A stretch of DNA of 43,664 nucleotides, taken from the sequence record LR597645, one strand, 5' to 3'. Origin of the DNA: Escherichia phage Fraca. A program made the position numbers and the translations under genes. Positions 20,209-43,664 of the stretch are shown here, piece after piece; positions within the stretch are counted from its first letter, which is position 1; every line of letters begins with the position of its first letter. Below the pieces are notes generated by a model. The model saw nothing but the letters and a program-made list of their open reading frames with translations, searched no databases and was not told the DNA's origin.

Positions 20209-21528
20209 ATGCTTTATAACACTGGCACCATTGCTATCAACGGAAATACCGCCACCGGGACGGGTACAAACTGGACGGCACCCGCCAGCCAGGTTCGCGC
20301 TGGCCAGACGATTATCGTCATGTCGAGCCCGGTACAAATTTTCCAGATCTCAAGCGTGGACAGTTCCACCTCAATGACGGTTACACCTGCCGCCGCTCCG
20401 GCACTTAGTGGCCAGAAGTATGGAATCCTGGTGTCCGACAATATCTCTGTCGACGGACTGGCACAGGCCATGTCGCAACTCATCAAAGAGTATGACGAGA
20501 ATATTGGCGCGTGGGAGACGTTCGCCACAACCTCAGCCAATCAGAGCATCACTGTAACCATCAACGGCACCTCCGTAACCATCCCTGGCATCGGTAAGCT
20601 GGCACAGAAAGGGAGCAACGGCGCGCTAGCTGTCGAAGACGGCGGAACCGGGGCAACCACGGCAGAAGGCAGTCGCACAAACCTCGGTTTGGGAAACAGC
20701 GCCACCAGGAGTGTTGGGACGGTAACTGGTACCGTAGCTGCTGGCGATGATTCTCGCATCACTGGTGCCCTTCAAAAAACTGGCGGGACACTAACAGGTC
20801 AGCTGAATTTGAAAAGCGCGCCAATCGCTGCCGATGCTAACTCTGTTATTTCTGCCAACGGTGGGCTTGATGTTGATCTTTCTAAGGGGTTCGTTTTAAA
20901 AGGAAAGGTGCAGAAGGGGGCAGGTAGGGACAATAATATACTTACAATCTCGGGTGATGGAGATACGCCAACAACAGGATATGTAGGCGCGTTTCAGTAT
21001 AACTGGTATGCCGATGGCTGGATTGCAGGTATCACGCGTGGATCAGGAACAAACACAATTGCGTATTCGATTTACTATAACGGTGCATCATATGGCACTG
21101 GGTCAAAGTTTTGGAGCTTTAATTATGATGGCTCAGCCACTTCTCAGGGCGCCTGGGTTAATGGTTCTGACGAGCGCCACAAGTCGAATATTGAGGCTGT
21201 AGCCAAGCCTCTTCCCGCAGTACTCGCTATGCGTGGCGTGACTTACGATATTAAGGATGGCGGACGAGGCGTTGGCCTTATAGCCCAGGATGTTGAAAAG
21301 TGGTGTCCGGATGCTGTCAAATCATATGGAGACCGCAAGTTTAGCGACGGTGCGGTGATTGAGAATTTTAAATTTCTTGATACATCAGGCGTGGCTGCCG
21401 CCTACCATACTGAAGCAATCAAAGAACTCTTCAATCTGGTGGAACTGGCGCTTAACGATCCGGACAAGGCTCGTGATATTATTAAAGCGGTGAAAGCTGC
21501 CTCAGAGCTTAGCCAGTCAGGTTCGTGA
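20209..21528 (+). CDS. Tail fibre protein with C-terminal intramolecular chaperone (peptidase S74-like) domain
   Basis: ATG at 20209 with GGAGAAAA RBS; C-terminal SDERHKSNI motif characteristic of self-cleaving chaperone domains; the track start at 20116 lies inside a terminator-like region. Confidence 0.75.
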   Translation: MLYNTGTIAINGNTATGTGTNWTAPASQVRAGQTIIVMSSPVQIFQISSVDSSTSMTVTPAAAPALSGQKYGILVSDNISVDGLAQAMSQLIKEYDENIGAWETFATTSANQSITVTINGTSVTIPGIGKLAQKGSNGALAVEDGGTGATTAEGSRTNLGLGNSATRSVGTVTGTVAAGDDSRITGALQKTGGTLTGQLNLKSAPIAADANSVISANGGLDVDLSKGFVLKGKVQKGAGRDNNILTISGDGDTPTTGYVGAFQYNWYADGWIAGITRGSGTNTIAYSIYYNGASYGTGSKFWSFNYDGSATSQGAWVNGSDERHKSNIEAVAKPLPAVLAMRGVTYDIKDGGRGVGLIAQDVEKWCPDAVKSYGDRKFSDGAVIENFKFLDTSGVAAAYHTEAIKELFNLVELALNDPDKARDIIKAVKAASELSQSGS

Positions 21529-21558
21529 ATGATATAGCCAGGCGGCGGGCAAGGAAAC

Positions 21559-21590
21559 CGCCTCCCGTCGTATGCAAAAACGGGAGGCGG
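21559..21590. terminator. Bidirectional terminator between the tail fibre and DinI-like genes
   Basis: Perfect 10-bp stem CCGCCTCCCG / CGGGAGGCGG with 12-nt loop. Confidence 0.7.
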
Positions 21591-21646
21591 CAGGTTGCTT
21601 AGTGTTCATGTCCGAGCAAACGTGGGGAAAATTACACGATAGATAG

Positions 21647-21913
21647 TTAAAGCCCAACCTGGCGAACTGTCGGGAACTCAGAAACAAGCCACATATCTGC
21701 TTCTTCAAACATTTCCTCCAGCATGCGGTTCAGTTTTTCCCGATCGCTTTTGCTGGCATCGCTATTTAAGGCGTTTGCCTGCATCGGCTTCACCTTCACT
21801 TCGGCATCAGGGAAAATCTGGTGCACCCGCTTCGTCAGCTCGGCCAGTATGATCTCTCTGGCCCCTTCGAGCCCCTCAACATTACGCTTGTCATAAATCA
21901 GTTCTACGAACAT
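21647..21913 (-). CDS. dinI: DinI-like protein
   Basis: About 88 aa from ATG at 21913; C-terminal EEMFEEADMWLVSEF resembles the DinI signature ETWESADDWFVSE. Confidence 0.7.
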   Translation of the reverse strand: MFVELIYDKRNVEGLEGAREIILAELTKRVHQIFPDAEVKVKPMQANALNSDASKSDREKLNRMLEEMFEEADMWLVSEFPTVRQVGL

Positions 21914-21989
21914 ACGTGCTCCGCTAACTACTGTTTTAATATACAGTATTTTTGCTTTGGCAGTTTTGTCTGTCAAGGCATCAACCATT

Positions 21990-22267
21990 TGTTTTTAAAT
22001 TTTGGGAAATTTACTGCGGGTGAGCATGCTGCCTTTTTGGCGTGTAGGGCCGATGCTGCCTGAGGTTGGCTAAAATTATCTGTGGGGCATGGATGGGGCA
22101 AAAGTGGTCTGTGAAGTTCGTTAAAGTTCGTTAATCAACCTTTATCTCGATCTCTCTCATCCCTTGTTTAAAGCGCTCCTGGACGATCTTTATCGATTTT
22201 AAAAACTATGAGTTCATATTATACAAATGTAGCGATATGACTGCTAACCACTTGAATTTAAGGTTTT
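21990..22267. other. Candidate attP region adjacent to the integrase 3' end
   Basis: AT-rich non-coding stretch with repeated TGGGGCA motifs (four copies) and direct repeat GTTCGTTAAAGTTCGTTAA. Confidence 0.45.
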
Positions 22268-23560
22268 CTACTGCGCTACTACCATGCTTTGGGGCAGTGA
22301 TGGGGCAGCGTGTGAAAGCGCCTGGTTGAGCAGAGCAACCTGCTCTCCACTCTTCTCTGACATCCACTTTCCATACACCTTGTAAACCATCTGTGCATCG
22401 GTATGTCCCATCTGAGTTGCTATAAAGTTCGGGTTAGCACCAGCCGATAATGACCAGCACGCATAGGTATGCCGTGACTGATAAGCGTTGCGGTAACGAA
22501 TACCGGCGCGCTTGATTATCGGAGCCCAAATTTTATTAATCGAATTAACCGCGTAGTGATATCCTGTGCGAGACCCACGTTTGACGCATTGAGGGCTGAA
22601 AACGAAAGTGCATGGATGTATGACTGACTGGCCATATTCCCGCAAATTCACTTCAACCTCATGCTGCCGGCCAAGGCGCGTCAGTTGGGCCTGATCCCTA
22701 AGGGCATCAATAGCTGGTTGTATGAGATAAATCACCCTGTCAGTGCCTGCCTCGGTTTTTGGCAGGGTGAACTCATACGTTTGGGTAAGGTTACGCTTAA
22801 CCGTAATGGTTCCCGCGGTGAGATCGATGTCTTCCCATGCAAGACCACATAATTCCCCATGCCTCATTCCGGTATAAACGGCGACGGTCCAGAGATTTCG
22901 CATCTGCTGGTGGCCGCATGCCTGAATGAACCTGATGAACTCGTCTGTAGTGAGTGGATCTGGTTCGTCTTTTGCCTTCCTGAGACGGTTAATTCCGCTA
23001 AACGGGTTTTCCTTTGCGTAGCCGTTATCAGCTCCAAACTGGAAGATCTCGGCCATCAGCATCATGTAATTATTCACCGTGGAAGACTTCCGGCCTTTTA
23101 CCTGTGTCCGGTGATCCTTCTTCATTACATGGAAGCCCGTCAGCAACTCCTTCCTTACATACAGCAAATCTTCAGTGGTAACCGCAGAAACCATTTTATT
23201 TTCGCCGATGCGCGGAAGCATGTTTTTTATGATGGATTCGTACCTACTCATGGTATTAGAGCTGATCTCCATTCTCTTCAGCTCTGACCATCTTTCGGTA
23301 AGCTCCAGCACAGTAATTTCCTTTCTATCCTGACCGAACCGGGCAAGGTTCGGTGAGTTTGGGAATTTTTCTGCATAGTTAAAATTCCCCATTCTTATCG
23401 CAAAACAAACCGAAGAACGCAGCTCGCCAGCTATCTTGCGATTTTTTGCAGTGTCAGGGACACCTAGGTTTTCCCTGACACGTTTACCTTTATACAGAAA
23501 CCAGATGCGGAGCGAACCGCCGTGGTTTTCGACGCCTGTCGGGTATGATGCATTAGCCAT
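22268..23560 (-). CDS. int: Tyrosine integrase
   Basis: ATG at 23560 with AGGAGGG RBS; C-terminal catalytic region with R...HxxR...Y (RHTYACWSL...MVYKVYGKW). Confidence 0.85.
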   Translation of the reverse strand: MANASYPTGVENHGGSLRIWFLYKGKRVRENLGVPDTAKNRKIAGELRSSVCFAIRMGNFNYAEKFPNSPNLARFGQDRKEITVLELTERWSELKRMEISSNTMSRYESIIKNMLPRIGENKMVSAVTTEDLLYVRKELLTGFHVMKKDHRTQVKGRKSSTVNNYMMLMAEIFQFGADNGYAKENPFSGINRLRKAKDEPDPLTTDEFIRFIQACGHQQMRNLWTVAVYTGMRHGELCGLAWEDIDLTAGTITVKRNLTQTYEFTLPKTEAGTDRVIYLIQPAIDALRDQAQLTRLGRQHEVEVNLREYGQSVIHPCTFVFSPQCVKRGSRTGYHYAVNSINKIWAPIIKRAGIRYRNAYQSRHTYACWSLSAGANPNFIATQMGHTDAQMVYKVYGKWMSEKSGEQVALLNQALSHAAPSLPQSMVVAQ

Positions 23561-23604: not shown

Positions 23605-23862
23605 TCATGCTGTCTTCGCACCTGGTTGATTTTTTTTCTGCGCCTCGATCCACAGATCAACGGCTTTCCTGTTGTACATGCATTCGCTCGAAGGCTTGGG
23701 ATTACCATCTGGTGAAATGTGCAGGTACTCGCGGCCCAGCATCCAGGATTCTTTTCTGGCGCGGGTGATGGTTCCGGGCTTGAGCCCGGTAACCGCAATC
23801 AGAACCTTTTCGCTAACCCAGTCATTCGGCACCAGAAGAACGATTTCAGCACTGGTTTGCAT
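23605..23862 (-). CDS. xis: Excisionase-like protein
   Basis: About 85 aa from ATG at 23862 with GGAGGA RBS; basic small protein immediately upstream of int. Confidence 0.6.
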   Translation of the reverse strand: MQTSAEIVLLVPNDWVSEKVLIAVTGLKPGTITRARKESWMLGREYLHISPDGNPKPSSECMYNRKAVDLWIEAQKKNQPGAKTA

Positions 23863-43523: not shown

Positions 43524-43664
43524 TATCTGCTCTCATTTGCGCGGTCTTGGGGAGGGCGGGTAAAAACCTCAGGGAAATCACCCTAAAGGACCGCCGCCTA
43601 ACCTCTTTTCACATCGCCGCAGGTTAGAAAACTTTTTTTAGGGGTCCCCCACTCGATGATTAAT
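43524..43664. other. Non-coding packaging (cos/pac) region continuing into 188-201 upstream of terS
   Basis: Non-coding stretch between the HNH and small terminase genes with GGGGTCCCCC palindrome and T7 tract; exact site undetermined. Confidence 0.4.

What the first reader, a model, noticed from the sequence alone, without database searches (positions are those of the whole stretch)
21990..22267. Candidate attP with repeated TGGGGCA motifs next to the integrase
The non-coding stretch between the DinI-like gene and the int stop has four TGGGGCA copies in two pairs and a direct repeat GTTCGTTAAAGTTCGTTAA, consistent with integrase arm-type sites. The intact arrangement indicates the sequence is in phage rather than integrated form.
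Basis: partly seen in the sequence, partly recalled or inferred. Interest (0 to 1): 0.4.

Follow-up and report, generated by a model that had tools for sequence, protein, structure and literature searches.

The report
Gifsy-2-type phage attachment site
This stretch is the intact attachment site (attP) that a temperate phage uses to insert itself between the bacterial genes pncB and pepN. It is an ordinary lambda-style site, but its TGGGGCA repeats are a shared signature of a large integrase family that includes Shiga-toxin phages.

Summary
The repeats are real. TGGGGCA occurs four times on the + strand as two 11-bp-spaced pairs (22083/22094 and 22290/22301), and GTTCGTTAA occurs twice (22116, 22126). 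The second TGGGGCA pair is not in the non-coding stretch. It lies inside the last codons of int, beyond the finding's end coordinate.

The attP reading is supported. A 97%-identical prophage has attL homology that starts at window 22219 and attR homology that ends at 22233. This gives a 15-bp common core, TTATACAAATGTAGC. Its host flanks are pncB and pepN, the Gifsy-2 site, and E. coli K-12 carries TTATAAAAATGTAGC in that intergenic region.

The window holds no host DNA, starts where the phage mEp235 record starts, and has a contiguous P arm, core and P' arm. It is therefore in phage form.

The integrase has an Arm-DNA-bind_2 N-domain. Relatives with unrelated cores (933W, CobraSix, RothD and about 48 metagenomic attPs) keep TGGGGCA pairs on both arms. 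More distant family members keep the geometry but use other heptamers; in phiCTX these flank its annotated core.

The GTTCGTTAA repeats occur only in the P arm and vary between sub-families, so they are more likely Xis sites. No binding was tested.

Verdict: a new member of a known kind, of modest interest.

The parts
22080..22310 (+). Whole attP as delimited here (P arm, core, P' arm), about 230 bp
   Evidence: In relatives, conservation to the left starts at the first GTGGGGCA; locus L105 diverges immediately upstream of it. The right-hand limit is the second pair. The outer span of the pairs is 225 bp.
22083..22100 (+). P-arm pair of candidate integrase arm-type sites: TGGGGCA tgga TGGGGCA
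   Evidence: Present in all 17 unique P arms of this att type and in attR junctions of lysogens. The same paired motif is found in 933W, CobraSix, RothD, phi330 and mEp460_ev081.
22116..22134 (+). GTTCGTTAA a GTTCGTTAA, a 10-bp-period direct repeat; candidate excisionase (Xis) sites
   Evidence: unique in the window; 0.3 copies expected. Found in the P arm only. Related 10-bp-phased TTCGnnAA-like repeats occur in relatives with a similar DUF1233 Xis, and other motifs occur where Xis is more distant. The assignment is by analogy to lambda X1/X2 (PMC4880445) and to the Gifsy-1 Xis direct repeats (PMC2603039). It was not tested.
22174..22206 (+). Conserved block GCGCTCCTGGACGATCTTTATCGATTTTAAAAA between the repeats and the core; role unknown (candidate bending or accessory-protein site)
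   Evidence: Nearly invariant within this att type. Recognisable (GCTCYTGGRCGAY...) in relatives with different cores, including 933W, CobraSix, RothD and phi330. There is no IHF consensus within one mismatch.
22219..22233 (+). Common core TTATACAAATGTAGC, which contains the strand-exchange region
   Evidence: Homology of attL (L018) to the window starts at 22219, and homology of attR (L100, same prophage contig) ends at 22233. The ends of the Gifsy-2 prophage record meet here. E. coli K-12 has TTATAAAAATGTAGC at NC_000913.3 990502-990516, between pncB and pepN.
22245..22257 (-). IHF-like site (ATTCAAGTGGTTA, one mismatch to WATCAANNNNTTR), in the position of lambda H'
   Evidence: It is the only match within one mismatch in 22060-22320, where 0.16 is expected. 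It lies in a conserved block between the variable spacer and the int stop. Some relatives (e.g. L059) read TAACCACTTGATT, a perfect match.
22290..22307 (+). P'-arm pair of candidate arm-type sites, TGGGGCA gtga TGGGGCA, embedded in the 3' end of int
   Evidence: Exact in 79 of the 80 IMG/VR loci retrieved by integrase protein; the exception is L042, whose integrase match stops at residue 425. Also exact in all 7 genome loci, at 61-94% integrase identity. Third codon positions of ..T GCC CCA ... .TG CCC CA. are invariant in 10 of 11 integrases while neighbouring codons vary.
22268..23560 (-). Tyrosine integrase, 430 aa, IntBPP-1 / DUF3596 type
   Evidence: Pfam Arm-DNA-bind_2 PF12167 (residues 7-70, E 2.4e-23) and Phage_integrase PF00589 (E 3.8e-17). 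94-95% identical to Gifsy-2-type integrases and 63% to the 933W integrase. Subgroup named in PMC8138268.
23605..23862 (-). Excisionase (Xis), 85 aa
   Evidence: Pfam DUF1233 'putative excisionase' PF06806, E 3.6e-33. It is in the same position as the annotated excisionase of Gifsy-2, SaltyDalty and YP3.
21647..21913 (-). DinI-family gene bounding attP on the left. Its control region is to its right: LexA-box-like 21931-21946 and promoter-like 21948-21976.
   Evidence: Pfam DinI, E 1.8e-23. The 267-bp length matches the SaltyDalty annotation. Promoter scan; sequence.

Best explanation
Window 22080-22310 is the intact attP of a Gifsy-2-type integration module carried by a lambdoid phage in virion (non-integrated) form.

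Shown:
- The 15-bp core, 22219-22233, is the segment shared with the bacterial attB in the pncB-pepN intergenic region.
- In lysogens, the DNA right of the core (P' arm, int, xis) is joined to the pncB side, forming attL.
- The DNA left of the core (dinI, P arm) is joined to the pepN side, forming attR.

Inferred mechanism, by analogy with lambda:
- The integrase is heterobivalent.
- Its N-terminal Arm-DNA-bind_2 domain binds the four TGGGGCA heptamers. These form two 11-bp-spaced direct pairs, one 118 bp left of the core and one 56 bp right of it.
- Its core-binding and catalytic domains act at an imperfect dyad (TGYTAYA-N4-TRTARCA in attB) around the core.
- IHF bends the P' arm at 22245-22257, so that the arm-bound N-domains can reach the core.
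- The DUF1233 Xis probably binds the P-arm direct repeats at 22116-22134 to bend the P arm and direct excision.

The P' arm sites are dual-coded within the last codons of int. The crossover lies 35 bp past the stop codon, so int stays intact after integration.
For: Core and target:
- BLAST boundaries of attL (L018) and attR (L100) of one prophage, 97% identical to the window, fall at 22219 and 22233.
- The host flanks are absent from the window.
- Dozens of attL junctions read pncB-upstream DNA + TTATA[A/C/G]AAATGTAGC + P' arm.
- attR junctions read P arm + the same core + DNA leading to a reading frame that starts MTQQPQAKYRHDY; pepN starts at the same place in K-12.
- The ends of the Gifsy-2 record, annotated as halves of attP, abut at this point.
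- Gifsy-2 lies between pncB and pepN (PMC2000905).
- The K-12 intergenic region carries the core with one difference.

Phage form:
- The window begins at base 1 of the phage mEp235 record.
- It ends near the last bases of that record.
- Terminase genes are at the left end.

Arm sites:
- An arm-binding domain is present.
- Chance is excluded.
- TGGGGCA pairs persist on both arms in relatives with other cores, retrieved by protein and not by motif: CobraSix, RothD, phi330, mEp460_ev081, 933W and a Kosakonia prophage at another locus.
- 48 unique two-pair attP-like regions in IMG/VR have unrelated inner sequence. Most end in an integrase whose N-domain is 66-81% identical although the whole protein is only 49-79% identical.
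- PF12167 integrases at about 30% identity keep the geometry with other heptamers: phiCTX TGGGAAC, JBD44 and MD8 TGTACCA, LMessi GTGCAT.
- In phiCTX the pairs flank the annotated attP core at a similar P'-side distance, 55 bp against 56 bp.
- DNA-level constraint on the P' pair is shown by invariant third codon positions and by two different codon phases.
Against: - No protein-DNA binding or recombination was tested. The assignment of TGGGGCA to the Int N-domain, of GTTCGTTAA to Xis and of 22245-22257 to IHF rests on position, conservation and analogy.
- Only one IHF-like site was found, and none in the P arm.
- The core-type dyad is imperfect, and the cleavage positions are not mapped.
- The set was retrieved with exact heptamers, so it cannot measure how invariant the motif is. 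The unbiased sample is small: about 12 distinct integrases.
- Conservation of the P' pair is partly confounded by the conserved peptide A-P-x-L/M-P-Q/H.
- Most close relatives are so similar that conservation within this att type discriminates little.
- The window's core has C at 22224 where the K-12 and Salmonella attB have A. If that base lies in the overlap region, this could lower integration efficiency in those hosts.
Confidence: 0.85

Rival explanations
1. The TGGGGCA pairs are not integrase N-domain sites. They are either a by-product of the conserved C-terminal peptide of Int plus a chance or duplicated copy upstream, or they are sites for another protein such as Xis or a host factor.
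For: The P' pair lies in coding sequence that encodes a conserved A-P-x-L/M-P-Q/H peptide. Most TGGGGCA-type attPs also have a DUF1233 Xis, so the motif and Xis are phylogenetically linked. No binding data exist.
Against: The P pair is non-coding, and only the heptamers are shared with the P' pair, not their flanks. Third codon positions are fixed, and the two heptamers sit in different codon phases. TGGGGCA pairs persist where no DUF1233 Xis is detectable (L142 and the Firmicute-type loci). The heptamer changes with the AB-domain lineage while the geometry is kept. Pairs occur on both arms, whereas lambda Xis sites are in the P arm only (PMC4880445).
Confidence: 0.08
2. The GTTCGTTAA direct repeat is a further set of integrase arm-type sites, rather than Xis sites.
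For: It is a tandem direct repeat in helical phase next to the P pair, and it is conserved within this att type. Nothing here tests which protein binds it.
Against: It has no counterpart in the P' arm and no similarity to TGGGGCA. Sub-families that share TGGGGCA and a highly similar N-domain carry different repeats at this position: GAGGGCGAAC x2 in L128, AGAACG x2 in 933W and inverted repeats in L112-type loci. In lambda and Gifsy-1, P-arm direct repeats between the arm sites and the core are Xis sites (PMC4880445, PMC2603039).
Confidence: 0.15
3. The site is a relic. This phage no longer integrates here, or it uses another site.
For: The core differs from the K-12 and Salmonella attB at one position (C at 22224), and the base after the core (G at 22234) differs from the host A. 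The relative YP3 has lost the whole P arm, which shows that such modules can decay.
Against: All parts are intact and nearly identical to those of integrated relatives. The P arm of L100 is identical over the att region, and that prophage has the C-type core at both attL and attR. The int and xis reading frames are full length.
Confidence: 0.05
4. The window is an integrated prophage or contains host DNA, so the 'attP' is really a hybrid junction.
For: None found. The last 63 bases repeat 125-187, so the ends are not a simple unique cut.
Against: The host flanks of attL and attR (pncB side and pepN side) have no match in the window. Both arms are phage-type and contiguous. The window is colinear with phage genome records from terminase to lysis genes.
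Confidence: 0.02

Closest known systems
Gifsy-2 prophage attachment site of Salmonella Typhimurium LT2 (between pncB and pepN)
   Same: The integrase is 94-95% identical. The xis family is the same. The P pair, GTTCGTTAA repeats, conserved block, core and P' pair are in identical positions, and the bacterial target is the same.
   Different: The rest of the genome is mosaic, with mEp235/HK97-like structural genes. The core has C instead of A at its sixth base. The 12 bp right of the core and the region left of the P pair differ. The nearest lysogen's host flank is Enterobacter-like, 92% identical to E. sichuanensis. The Gifsy-2 record annotates only the core halves, not the arms.
Bacteriophage lambda attP (heterobivalent Int, arm-type sites P1, P2, P'1-3, IHF H1/H2/H', Xis X1-X2)
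   Same: A site of about 230-240 bp next to the 3' end of int. It has arm sites on both sides of a short core, an IHF-like site between the core and the P' sites, direct repeats in the P arm, and xis upstream of int (PMC4880445).
   Different: The arm-binding domain is from a different Pfam family (PF12167). The arm motif is different. There are four sites in two direct pairs rather than five sites. The P' sites are inside the int coding sequence. No IHF consensus was found in the P arm. The target is pncB-pepN rather than gal-bio.
Integration modules of Stx phage 933W and relatives (IntBPP-1 subgroup; wrbA, yehV and other targets)
   Same: The integrase is 63% identical and has PF12167. TGGGGCA pairs are present in the int 3' end and in the P arm. 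There is a similar GCTCTTGGACGATCT block and a DUF1233-type xis.
   Different: The core is different (annotated 7-bp GTTTCAA) and so is the target. The P arm of 933W carries three tandem pairs, six heptamers in all.
Pseudomonas phage phiCTX attP (annotated 30-bp core in a tRNA-Ser gene)
   Same: A PF12167 integrase with two 11-bp-spaced direct heptamer pairs flanking an annotated core. The P'-side spacing is 55 bp, against 56 bp here.
   Different: Only 31% integrase identity. The heptamer is TGGGAAC. The P' pair is downstream of the int stop rather than inside the gene. The target is a tRNA gene, and the phage is P2-like.

Membership tests
Lambda-type attP of a heterobivalent tyrosine integrase | Adjacent tyrosine recombinase with a catalytic domain | tested here: met
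   PF00589, E 3.8e-17, residues 203-396
Lambda-type attP of a heterobivalent tyrosine integrase | N-terminal arm-binding domain on the integrase | tested here: met
   PF12167 Arm-DNA-bind_2, E 2.4e-23, residues 7-70
Lambda-type attP of a heterobivalent tyrosine integrase | Repeated motif, unrelated to the core, on both sides of the crossover | tested here: met
   TGGGGCA pairs lie 118 bp left and 56 bp right of the core. Chance is excluded.
Lambda-type attP of a heterobivalent tyrosine integrase | The integrase N-domain actually binds those repeats | not testable with these tools
   Indirect support only: the heptamer co-varies with the AB-domain lineage at constant geometry
Lambda-type attP of a heterobivalent tyrosine integrase | Short core identical to a bacterial attB, with attL and attR in lysogens that recombine exactly there | tested here: met
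   Boundaries at 22219 and 22233. attL and attR series. K-12 attB candidate.
Lambda-type attP of a heterobivalent tyrosine integrase | Inverted core-type sites flanking a 6-8 bp overlap | tested here: inconclusive
   Only an imperfect dyad, TGTTATA-AAAA-TGTAGCA, is seen in attB (read). The cleavage points are unmapped.
Lambda-type attP of a heterobivalent tyrosine integrase | IHF or other bending-protein sites between the arm and core sites | tested here: inconclusive
   One site with a single mismatch at 22245-22257 in the P' arm, and none in the P arm
Lambda-type attP of a heterobivalent tyrosine integrase | Directionality factor gene next to int | tested here: met
   DUF1233 putative excisionase, E 3.6e-33, directly upstream of int
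Gifsy-2-type attachment site (pncB-pepN) | Integrase orthologous to Gifsy-2 Int | tested here: met
   94-95% identity over 430 aa to Gifsy-2-type loci L102 and L107. The N-terminal 80 aa are 98% identical to the Gifsy-2 record.
Gifsy-2-type attachment site (pncB-pepN) | Same core and same bacterial target | tested here: met
   The ends of the Gifsy-2 record abut at window position 22225 or so. Lysogens have pncB and pepN flanks. Gifsy-2 lies between pncB and pepN (PMC2000905).
   There is no tRNA or tmRNA in the window and no Rfam family at the site. attB is intergenic.

The most novel reading that the evidence does not exclude
The 11-bp-spaced TGGGGCA pair, present on both arms and always in direct orientation, may be a near-universal arm-site code. 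It would be read by one conserved arm-binding fold across the IntBPP-1 subgroup (Gifsy-2, 933W and other Stx phages, many Klebsiella and Enterobacter phages). It would also be read by a set of Firmicute phage integrases with an MWxEKLxNGKYR-type N-terminus that Pfam does not recognise.

Arm recognition would then be decoupled from core specificity and conserved across phyla. Sister lineages would have switched the heptamer (TGGGAAC, TGTACCA, GTGCAT) without changing the geometry.

I found no description of this in the searchable literature. One paper appears to list such a pair as the 'attachment site' of Streptococcus agalactiae prophages.
Probability: 0.45. Interest if true: 0.5.

Novelty: new member of a known kind. 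Interest (0 to 1): 0.33.

Why it matters
For this window the result is a precise annotation: attP limits, core, target locus and genome form. The phage can be placed in the Gifsy-2 integration group, which targets pncB-pepN in Enterobacteriaceae.

More generally, the paired-heptamer signature gives a simple sequence rule for locating attP, and hence prophage ends, next to DUF3596/IntBPP-1 integrases. This group includes Shiga-toxin phages, whose integrases are still called 'putative' (PMC8138268). The rule could also prevent arm repeats from being mistaken for att cores.

The family offers a natural set of integrases with the same arm code but many core specificities. This would be useful for engineering if it is confirmed biochemically.

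Tried and rejected
- **tRNA/tmRNA target.** No tRNA or tmRNA gene is in the window, and attB is intergenic.
- **Structured RNA in the region.** Only two sub-threshold Rfam matches, both outside attP.
- **Terminator downstream of int.** None found in 21500-22700.
- **Lysogens among 5,426 complete E. coli genomes.** Only dinI matches and one 128-bp int fragment were found. The junctions had to come from IMG/VR and GTDB genomes.
- **IHF consensus in the P arm.** Nothing within one mismatch. The AATCAACCTTTAT I first noted by eye has two mismatches.
- **Promoter-like hexamers across the core on the - strand (22247..22218).** Not above the shuffle expectation, 2 found against 1.6, so not pursued.
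- **Literature on arm sites for this family.** Searches on Gifsy-2, attP, pncB, TGGGGCA/TGCCCCA with integrase or attP, and DUF3596/IntBPP-1 with arm sites found none. Subscription-only papers are not covered, so absence is not proven.
- **Exact cleavage positions.** I tried to deduce them from A/C/G polymorphism at the sixth core base and from two secondary-site junctions (L090, L098). These are suggestive of exchange in the left half of the core but not decisive.
- **Separating Xis from Int as the binder of the P-arm repeats or of the conserved block.** Comparison across families failed here, because both features track overall relatedness.

Full report
**1. What is in the sequence**

The region lies between a DinI-family gene and a tyrosine integrase, both on the - strand.

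- TGGGGCA occurs at 22083, 22094, 22290 and 22301, always on the + strand.
- Each pair has the form TGGGGCAnnGATGGGGCA, and the two pairs are 207 bp apart.
- GTTCGTTAA occurs at 22116 and 22126 and nowhere else in the window.

The heptamer is not rare in itself: 8 copies against 7.3 expected. About 4e-4 such 11-bp-spaced pairs are expected in the window, which gives P of about 8e-8 for two. Four of eight random sites would fall within 225 bp on one strand about 5 times in a million.

The second pair is not in the non-coding stretch. It lies past the finding's end coordinate, in int codons 6-13 before the stop at 22268-22270.

At the left end, DinI most likely starts at 21913. A CTGT-N8-ACAG LexA-type box lies at 21931-21946 and a promoter-like site at 21948-21976. 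The left part of the gap is therefore the dinI control region.

**2. Where the crossover is**

A megablast of 21600-22700 against phage records hit the Gifsy-2 prophage record in two places. One ran to the last bases of the record. That record annotates its first 8 and last 7 bases as halves of attP. Its end (...CATATTATAAA) and start (ATGTAGCGAT...) abut at about window position 22225.

Integrase-based scans of GTDB genomes and IMG/VR returned many lysogens. Immediately beyond the P' pair and about 56 bp of phage DNA, their sequence changes to the upstream region of pncB. The junction reads ...GTGCCCCGTG | TTATA[A/C/G]AAATGTAGC | variable phage sequence.

A scan with the P-arm sequence returned the other junction. 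It reads P arm + TTATA[A/C]AAATGTAGC + DNA leading to a reading frame that starts MTQQPQAKYRHDY, which is where pepN starts in K-12.

One prophage contig, IMGVR_UViG_2700989505_000001, is 97% identical to the window around att, and both of its ends are in hand. attL homology to the window starts at 22219, and attR homology ends at 22233. The common core is therefore TTATACAAATGTAGC, 22219-22233.

E. coli K-12 has TTATAAAAATGTAGC between pncB and pepN. It lies 146 bp from the pncB start and 105 bp from the pepN start, at NC_000913.3 990502-990516. Gifsy-2 is reported between pncB and pepN in LT2 (PMC2000905). The target is not a tRNA gene.

**3. Phage form**

- The pncB-side and pepN-side flanks of the lysogen have no match in the window.
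- The P arm, core and P' arm are contiguous, as in the phage-form relatives SaltyDalty, AsXd-1, FSL SP-016, L013, L025 and L066.
- The window starts at base 1 of the phage mEp235 record, ends near that record's last bases, and runs from terminase to late genes.
- The host flank of the closest lysogen is 92% identical to Enterobacter sichuanensis. An Enterobacter-like host is therefore likely; this is an inference.

**4. Are the TGGGGCA pairs arm-type sites?**

The integrase has an Arm-DNA-bind_2 (PF12167, formerly DUF3596) N-domain as well as the catalytic domain. This places it in the IntBPP-1 subgroup together with the 'putative integrases' of Gifsy-2, Stx2a phage and BPP-1 (PMC8138268).

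*Relatives retrieved by protein.* These were found without using the motif.

- All seven genome loci, at 61-94% integrase identity, carry an exact pair in the int 3' end. They include a Kosakonia prophage at a different chromosomal site.
- Named phages sampled from a tblastn search carry pairs on both arms around unrelated inner sequence. CobraSix and RothD have exact pairs. phi330 and mEp460_ev081 have one heptamer changed to TGGGACA, and phi330 has three copies in its P arm. 933W has three tandem pairs in the P arm.

*Relatives retrieved by the two-pair pattern.* A scan of IMG/VR for pair, 170-200 bp, pair found 50 loci and 48 unique sequences with very diverse interiors. Most end in an integrase 49-79% identical overall, whose first 80 residues are 66-81% identical.

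*More distant family members.* PF12167 integrases at about 30% identity keep two 11-12-bp-spaced direct pairs on both sides but use other heptamers:

| Phage | Heptamer |
|---|---|
| phiCTX | TGGGAAC |
| JBD44, MD8 | TGTACCA |
| LMessi | GTGCAT |

In phiCTX the pairs (1664/1675 and 1837/1848) flank the annotated attP core (1737-1766). The P'-side gap is 55 bp, against 56 bp here. Class-specific differences fall in the predicted beta-strands of the N-domain.

*Coding constraint.* The P' pair is under constraint at the DNA level. In 10 of 11 integrases the codons read xxT GCC CCA xxx xTG CCC CAx with invariant third positions. The exception is phi330, which has GTC CCA. The two heptamers sit in different codon phases, and neighbouring codons vary synonymously.

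Taken together this is strong comparative evidence, but no binding was measured.

**5. Other elements**

- **GTTCGTTAA repeats.** The 10-bp-phased repeat sits only in the P arm, between the P pair and the core. Sub-families that share TGGGGCA carry different repeats at this position: TTCGnnAA-like repeats where Xis is 64-73% identical, GAGGGCGAAC x2 in L128, AGAACG x2 in 933W, and inverted repeats in others. In lambda and Gifsy-1, direct repeats in this position bind Xis (PMC4880445, PMC2603039). I therefore assign them to the DUF1233 Xis encoded at 23605-23862, with moderate confidence.
- **IHF-like site.** One IHF-like site with a single mismatch lies at 22245-22257, between the core and the P' pair, in a conserved block. 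Some relatives have the perfect consensus there.
- **Conserved block.** GCGCTCCTGGACGATCTTTATCGATTTTAAAAA (22174-22206) recurs in families with other cores, and I cannot assign it a role.
- **Core-type dyad.** attB shows only an imperfect dyad, TGTTATA-AAAA-TGTAGCA. The sixth core base varies (A, C or G) among attL junctions that have the same flanks. That would fit a position inside the overlap region, but it is not proof.

**6. Comparison and novelty**

This is the Gifsy-2 type of attP in a different, mosaic lambdoid phage. The architecture is that of lambda attP (PMC4880445), with three differences:

- a different arm-binding domain family;
- four direct sites in two pairs;
- P' sites inside int.

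I found no paper that describes arm sites for this integrase subgroup, but the searchable library is incomplete. The finding itself is ordinary and largely correct as read. The family-wide paired-heptamer signature is a useful and possibly undescribed by-product.

**7. Verdict**

It is doubtful for the GTTCGTTAA repeat as an integrase arm site.
- It is a new member of a known kind. Interest is about 0.33.

Noticed in passing
window 43602-43664 and 125-187: The last 63 bases of the window are an exact copy of 125-187, just upstream of the small terminase gene. A 124-bp segment (1-124) is therefore flanked by a direct repeat across the genome ends. mEp235 has the same sequence near its right end.
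   Followed up: partly
window 21911-21976: The DinI gene probably starts at 21913, not 21988. A LexA-box-like CTGTTTTAATATACAG lies at 21931-21946 just downstream of a TTGACA-17-AAAAAT promoter-like site, which suggests an SOS-regulated dinI.
   Followed up: partly
L111, L124, L125, L126, L127, L130, L134, L145, L148, L151 (IMG/VR): AT-rich, Firmicute-like loci have the same TGGGGCA-N4-TGGGGCA pairs on both sides of a region of about 190 bp, next to integrases only about 20-25% identical to the window's. Their N-termini (MWxEKLxNGKYR...) get no Pfam arm-domain hit.
   Followed up: partly
PMC11357604, prophage table: A Streptococcus agalactiae prophage survey lists TTATAGTTGGGGCGAATTTGGGGCATAA as the 'attachment site' of several prophages next to the HU gene. 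This looks like an arm-site pair repeated at both prophage ends rather than the crossover core.
   Followed up: no
L167 + L166 (phage 933W, record ends): The P arm of 933W carries three tandem TGGGGCA pairs. Two are 31-bp tandem copies of TTTGGGGCACTATTGGGGCAAAATGTGGTTG. One further pair lies in the int 3' end. The record annotates only a 7-bp core.
   Followed up: yes
L006 (Yersinia phage YP3) 1380-1620: YP3 has the same core and P' arm, but homology stops about 25 bp left of the core. The P pair and the GTTCGTTAA repeats are replaced by an unrelated gene, so its attP looks truncated.
   Followed up: partly
L090 (IMGVR_UViG_2667528106_000006): A Gifsy-2-type P' arm and int are joined to the middle of opgB at ...GCCGTTTAT|TATAAAAATGTAGC. 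The flank matches the glycerophosphotransferase model at residues 30-149. This is an apparent secondary attachment site that shares ATTATAAA with the core.
   Followed up: partly
L098 (IMGVR_UViG_2765235946_000002): A P arm identical in type to the window's is joined after CATATTAT to the C-terminal two-thirds of a CitR-like LysR regulator. This is a second non-canonical junction, and the break is in the left part of the core.
   Followed up: partly
window 22224, and the attL/attR loci: The sixth base of the core is A, C or G (T in E. sichuanensis) among lysogens. Both A and C occur with the same host flank and the same phage arm (e.g. L015 against L017). This could reflect heteroduplex segregation in the overlap region or polymorphism in the host.
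   Followed up: no
window 21995-22018 vs 22252-22275; 22026-22034 vs 22053-22061: There is a 24-nt, 71% direct repeat between the far-left spacer and the region that spans the IHF-like site and the int stop. This may be a decayed copy of a P' arm. In the variable spacer, ATGCTGCCT occurs exactly twice.
   Followed up: no
H2/H67 (Aeromonas phage AsXd-1) and L013 (Chitinophaga MAG contig): Records assigned to Aeromonas and Chitinophaga carry this enterobacterial int/attP at 93-99% protein identity, with the pncB-pepN-type core. Host misassignment or contamination seems likely.
   Followed up: no
window 22218-22247, - strand: A sigma-70-like TTAGCA-18-TATAAT spans the core, with the -10 hexamer inside the core. 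After integration it would face pncB. It is not above chance in the scan.
   Followed up: no
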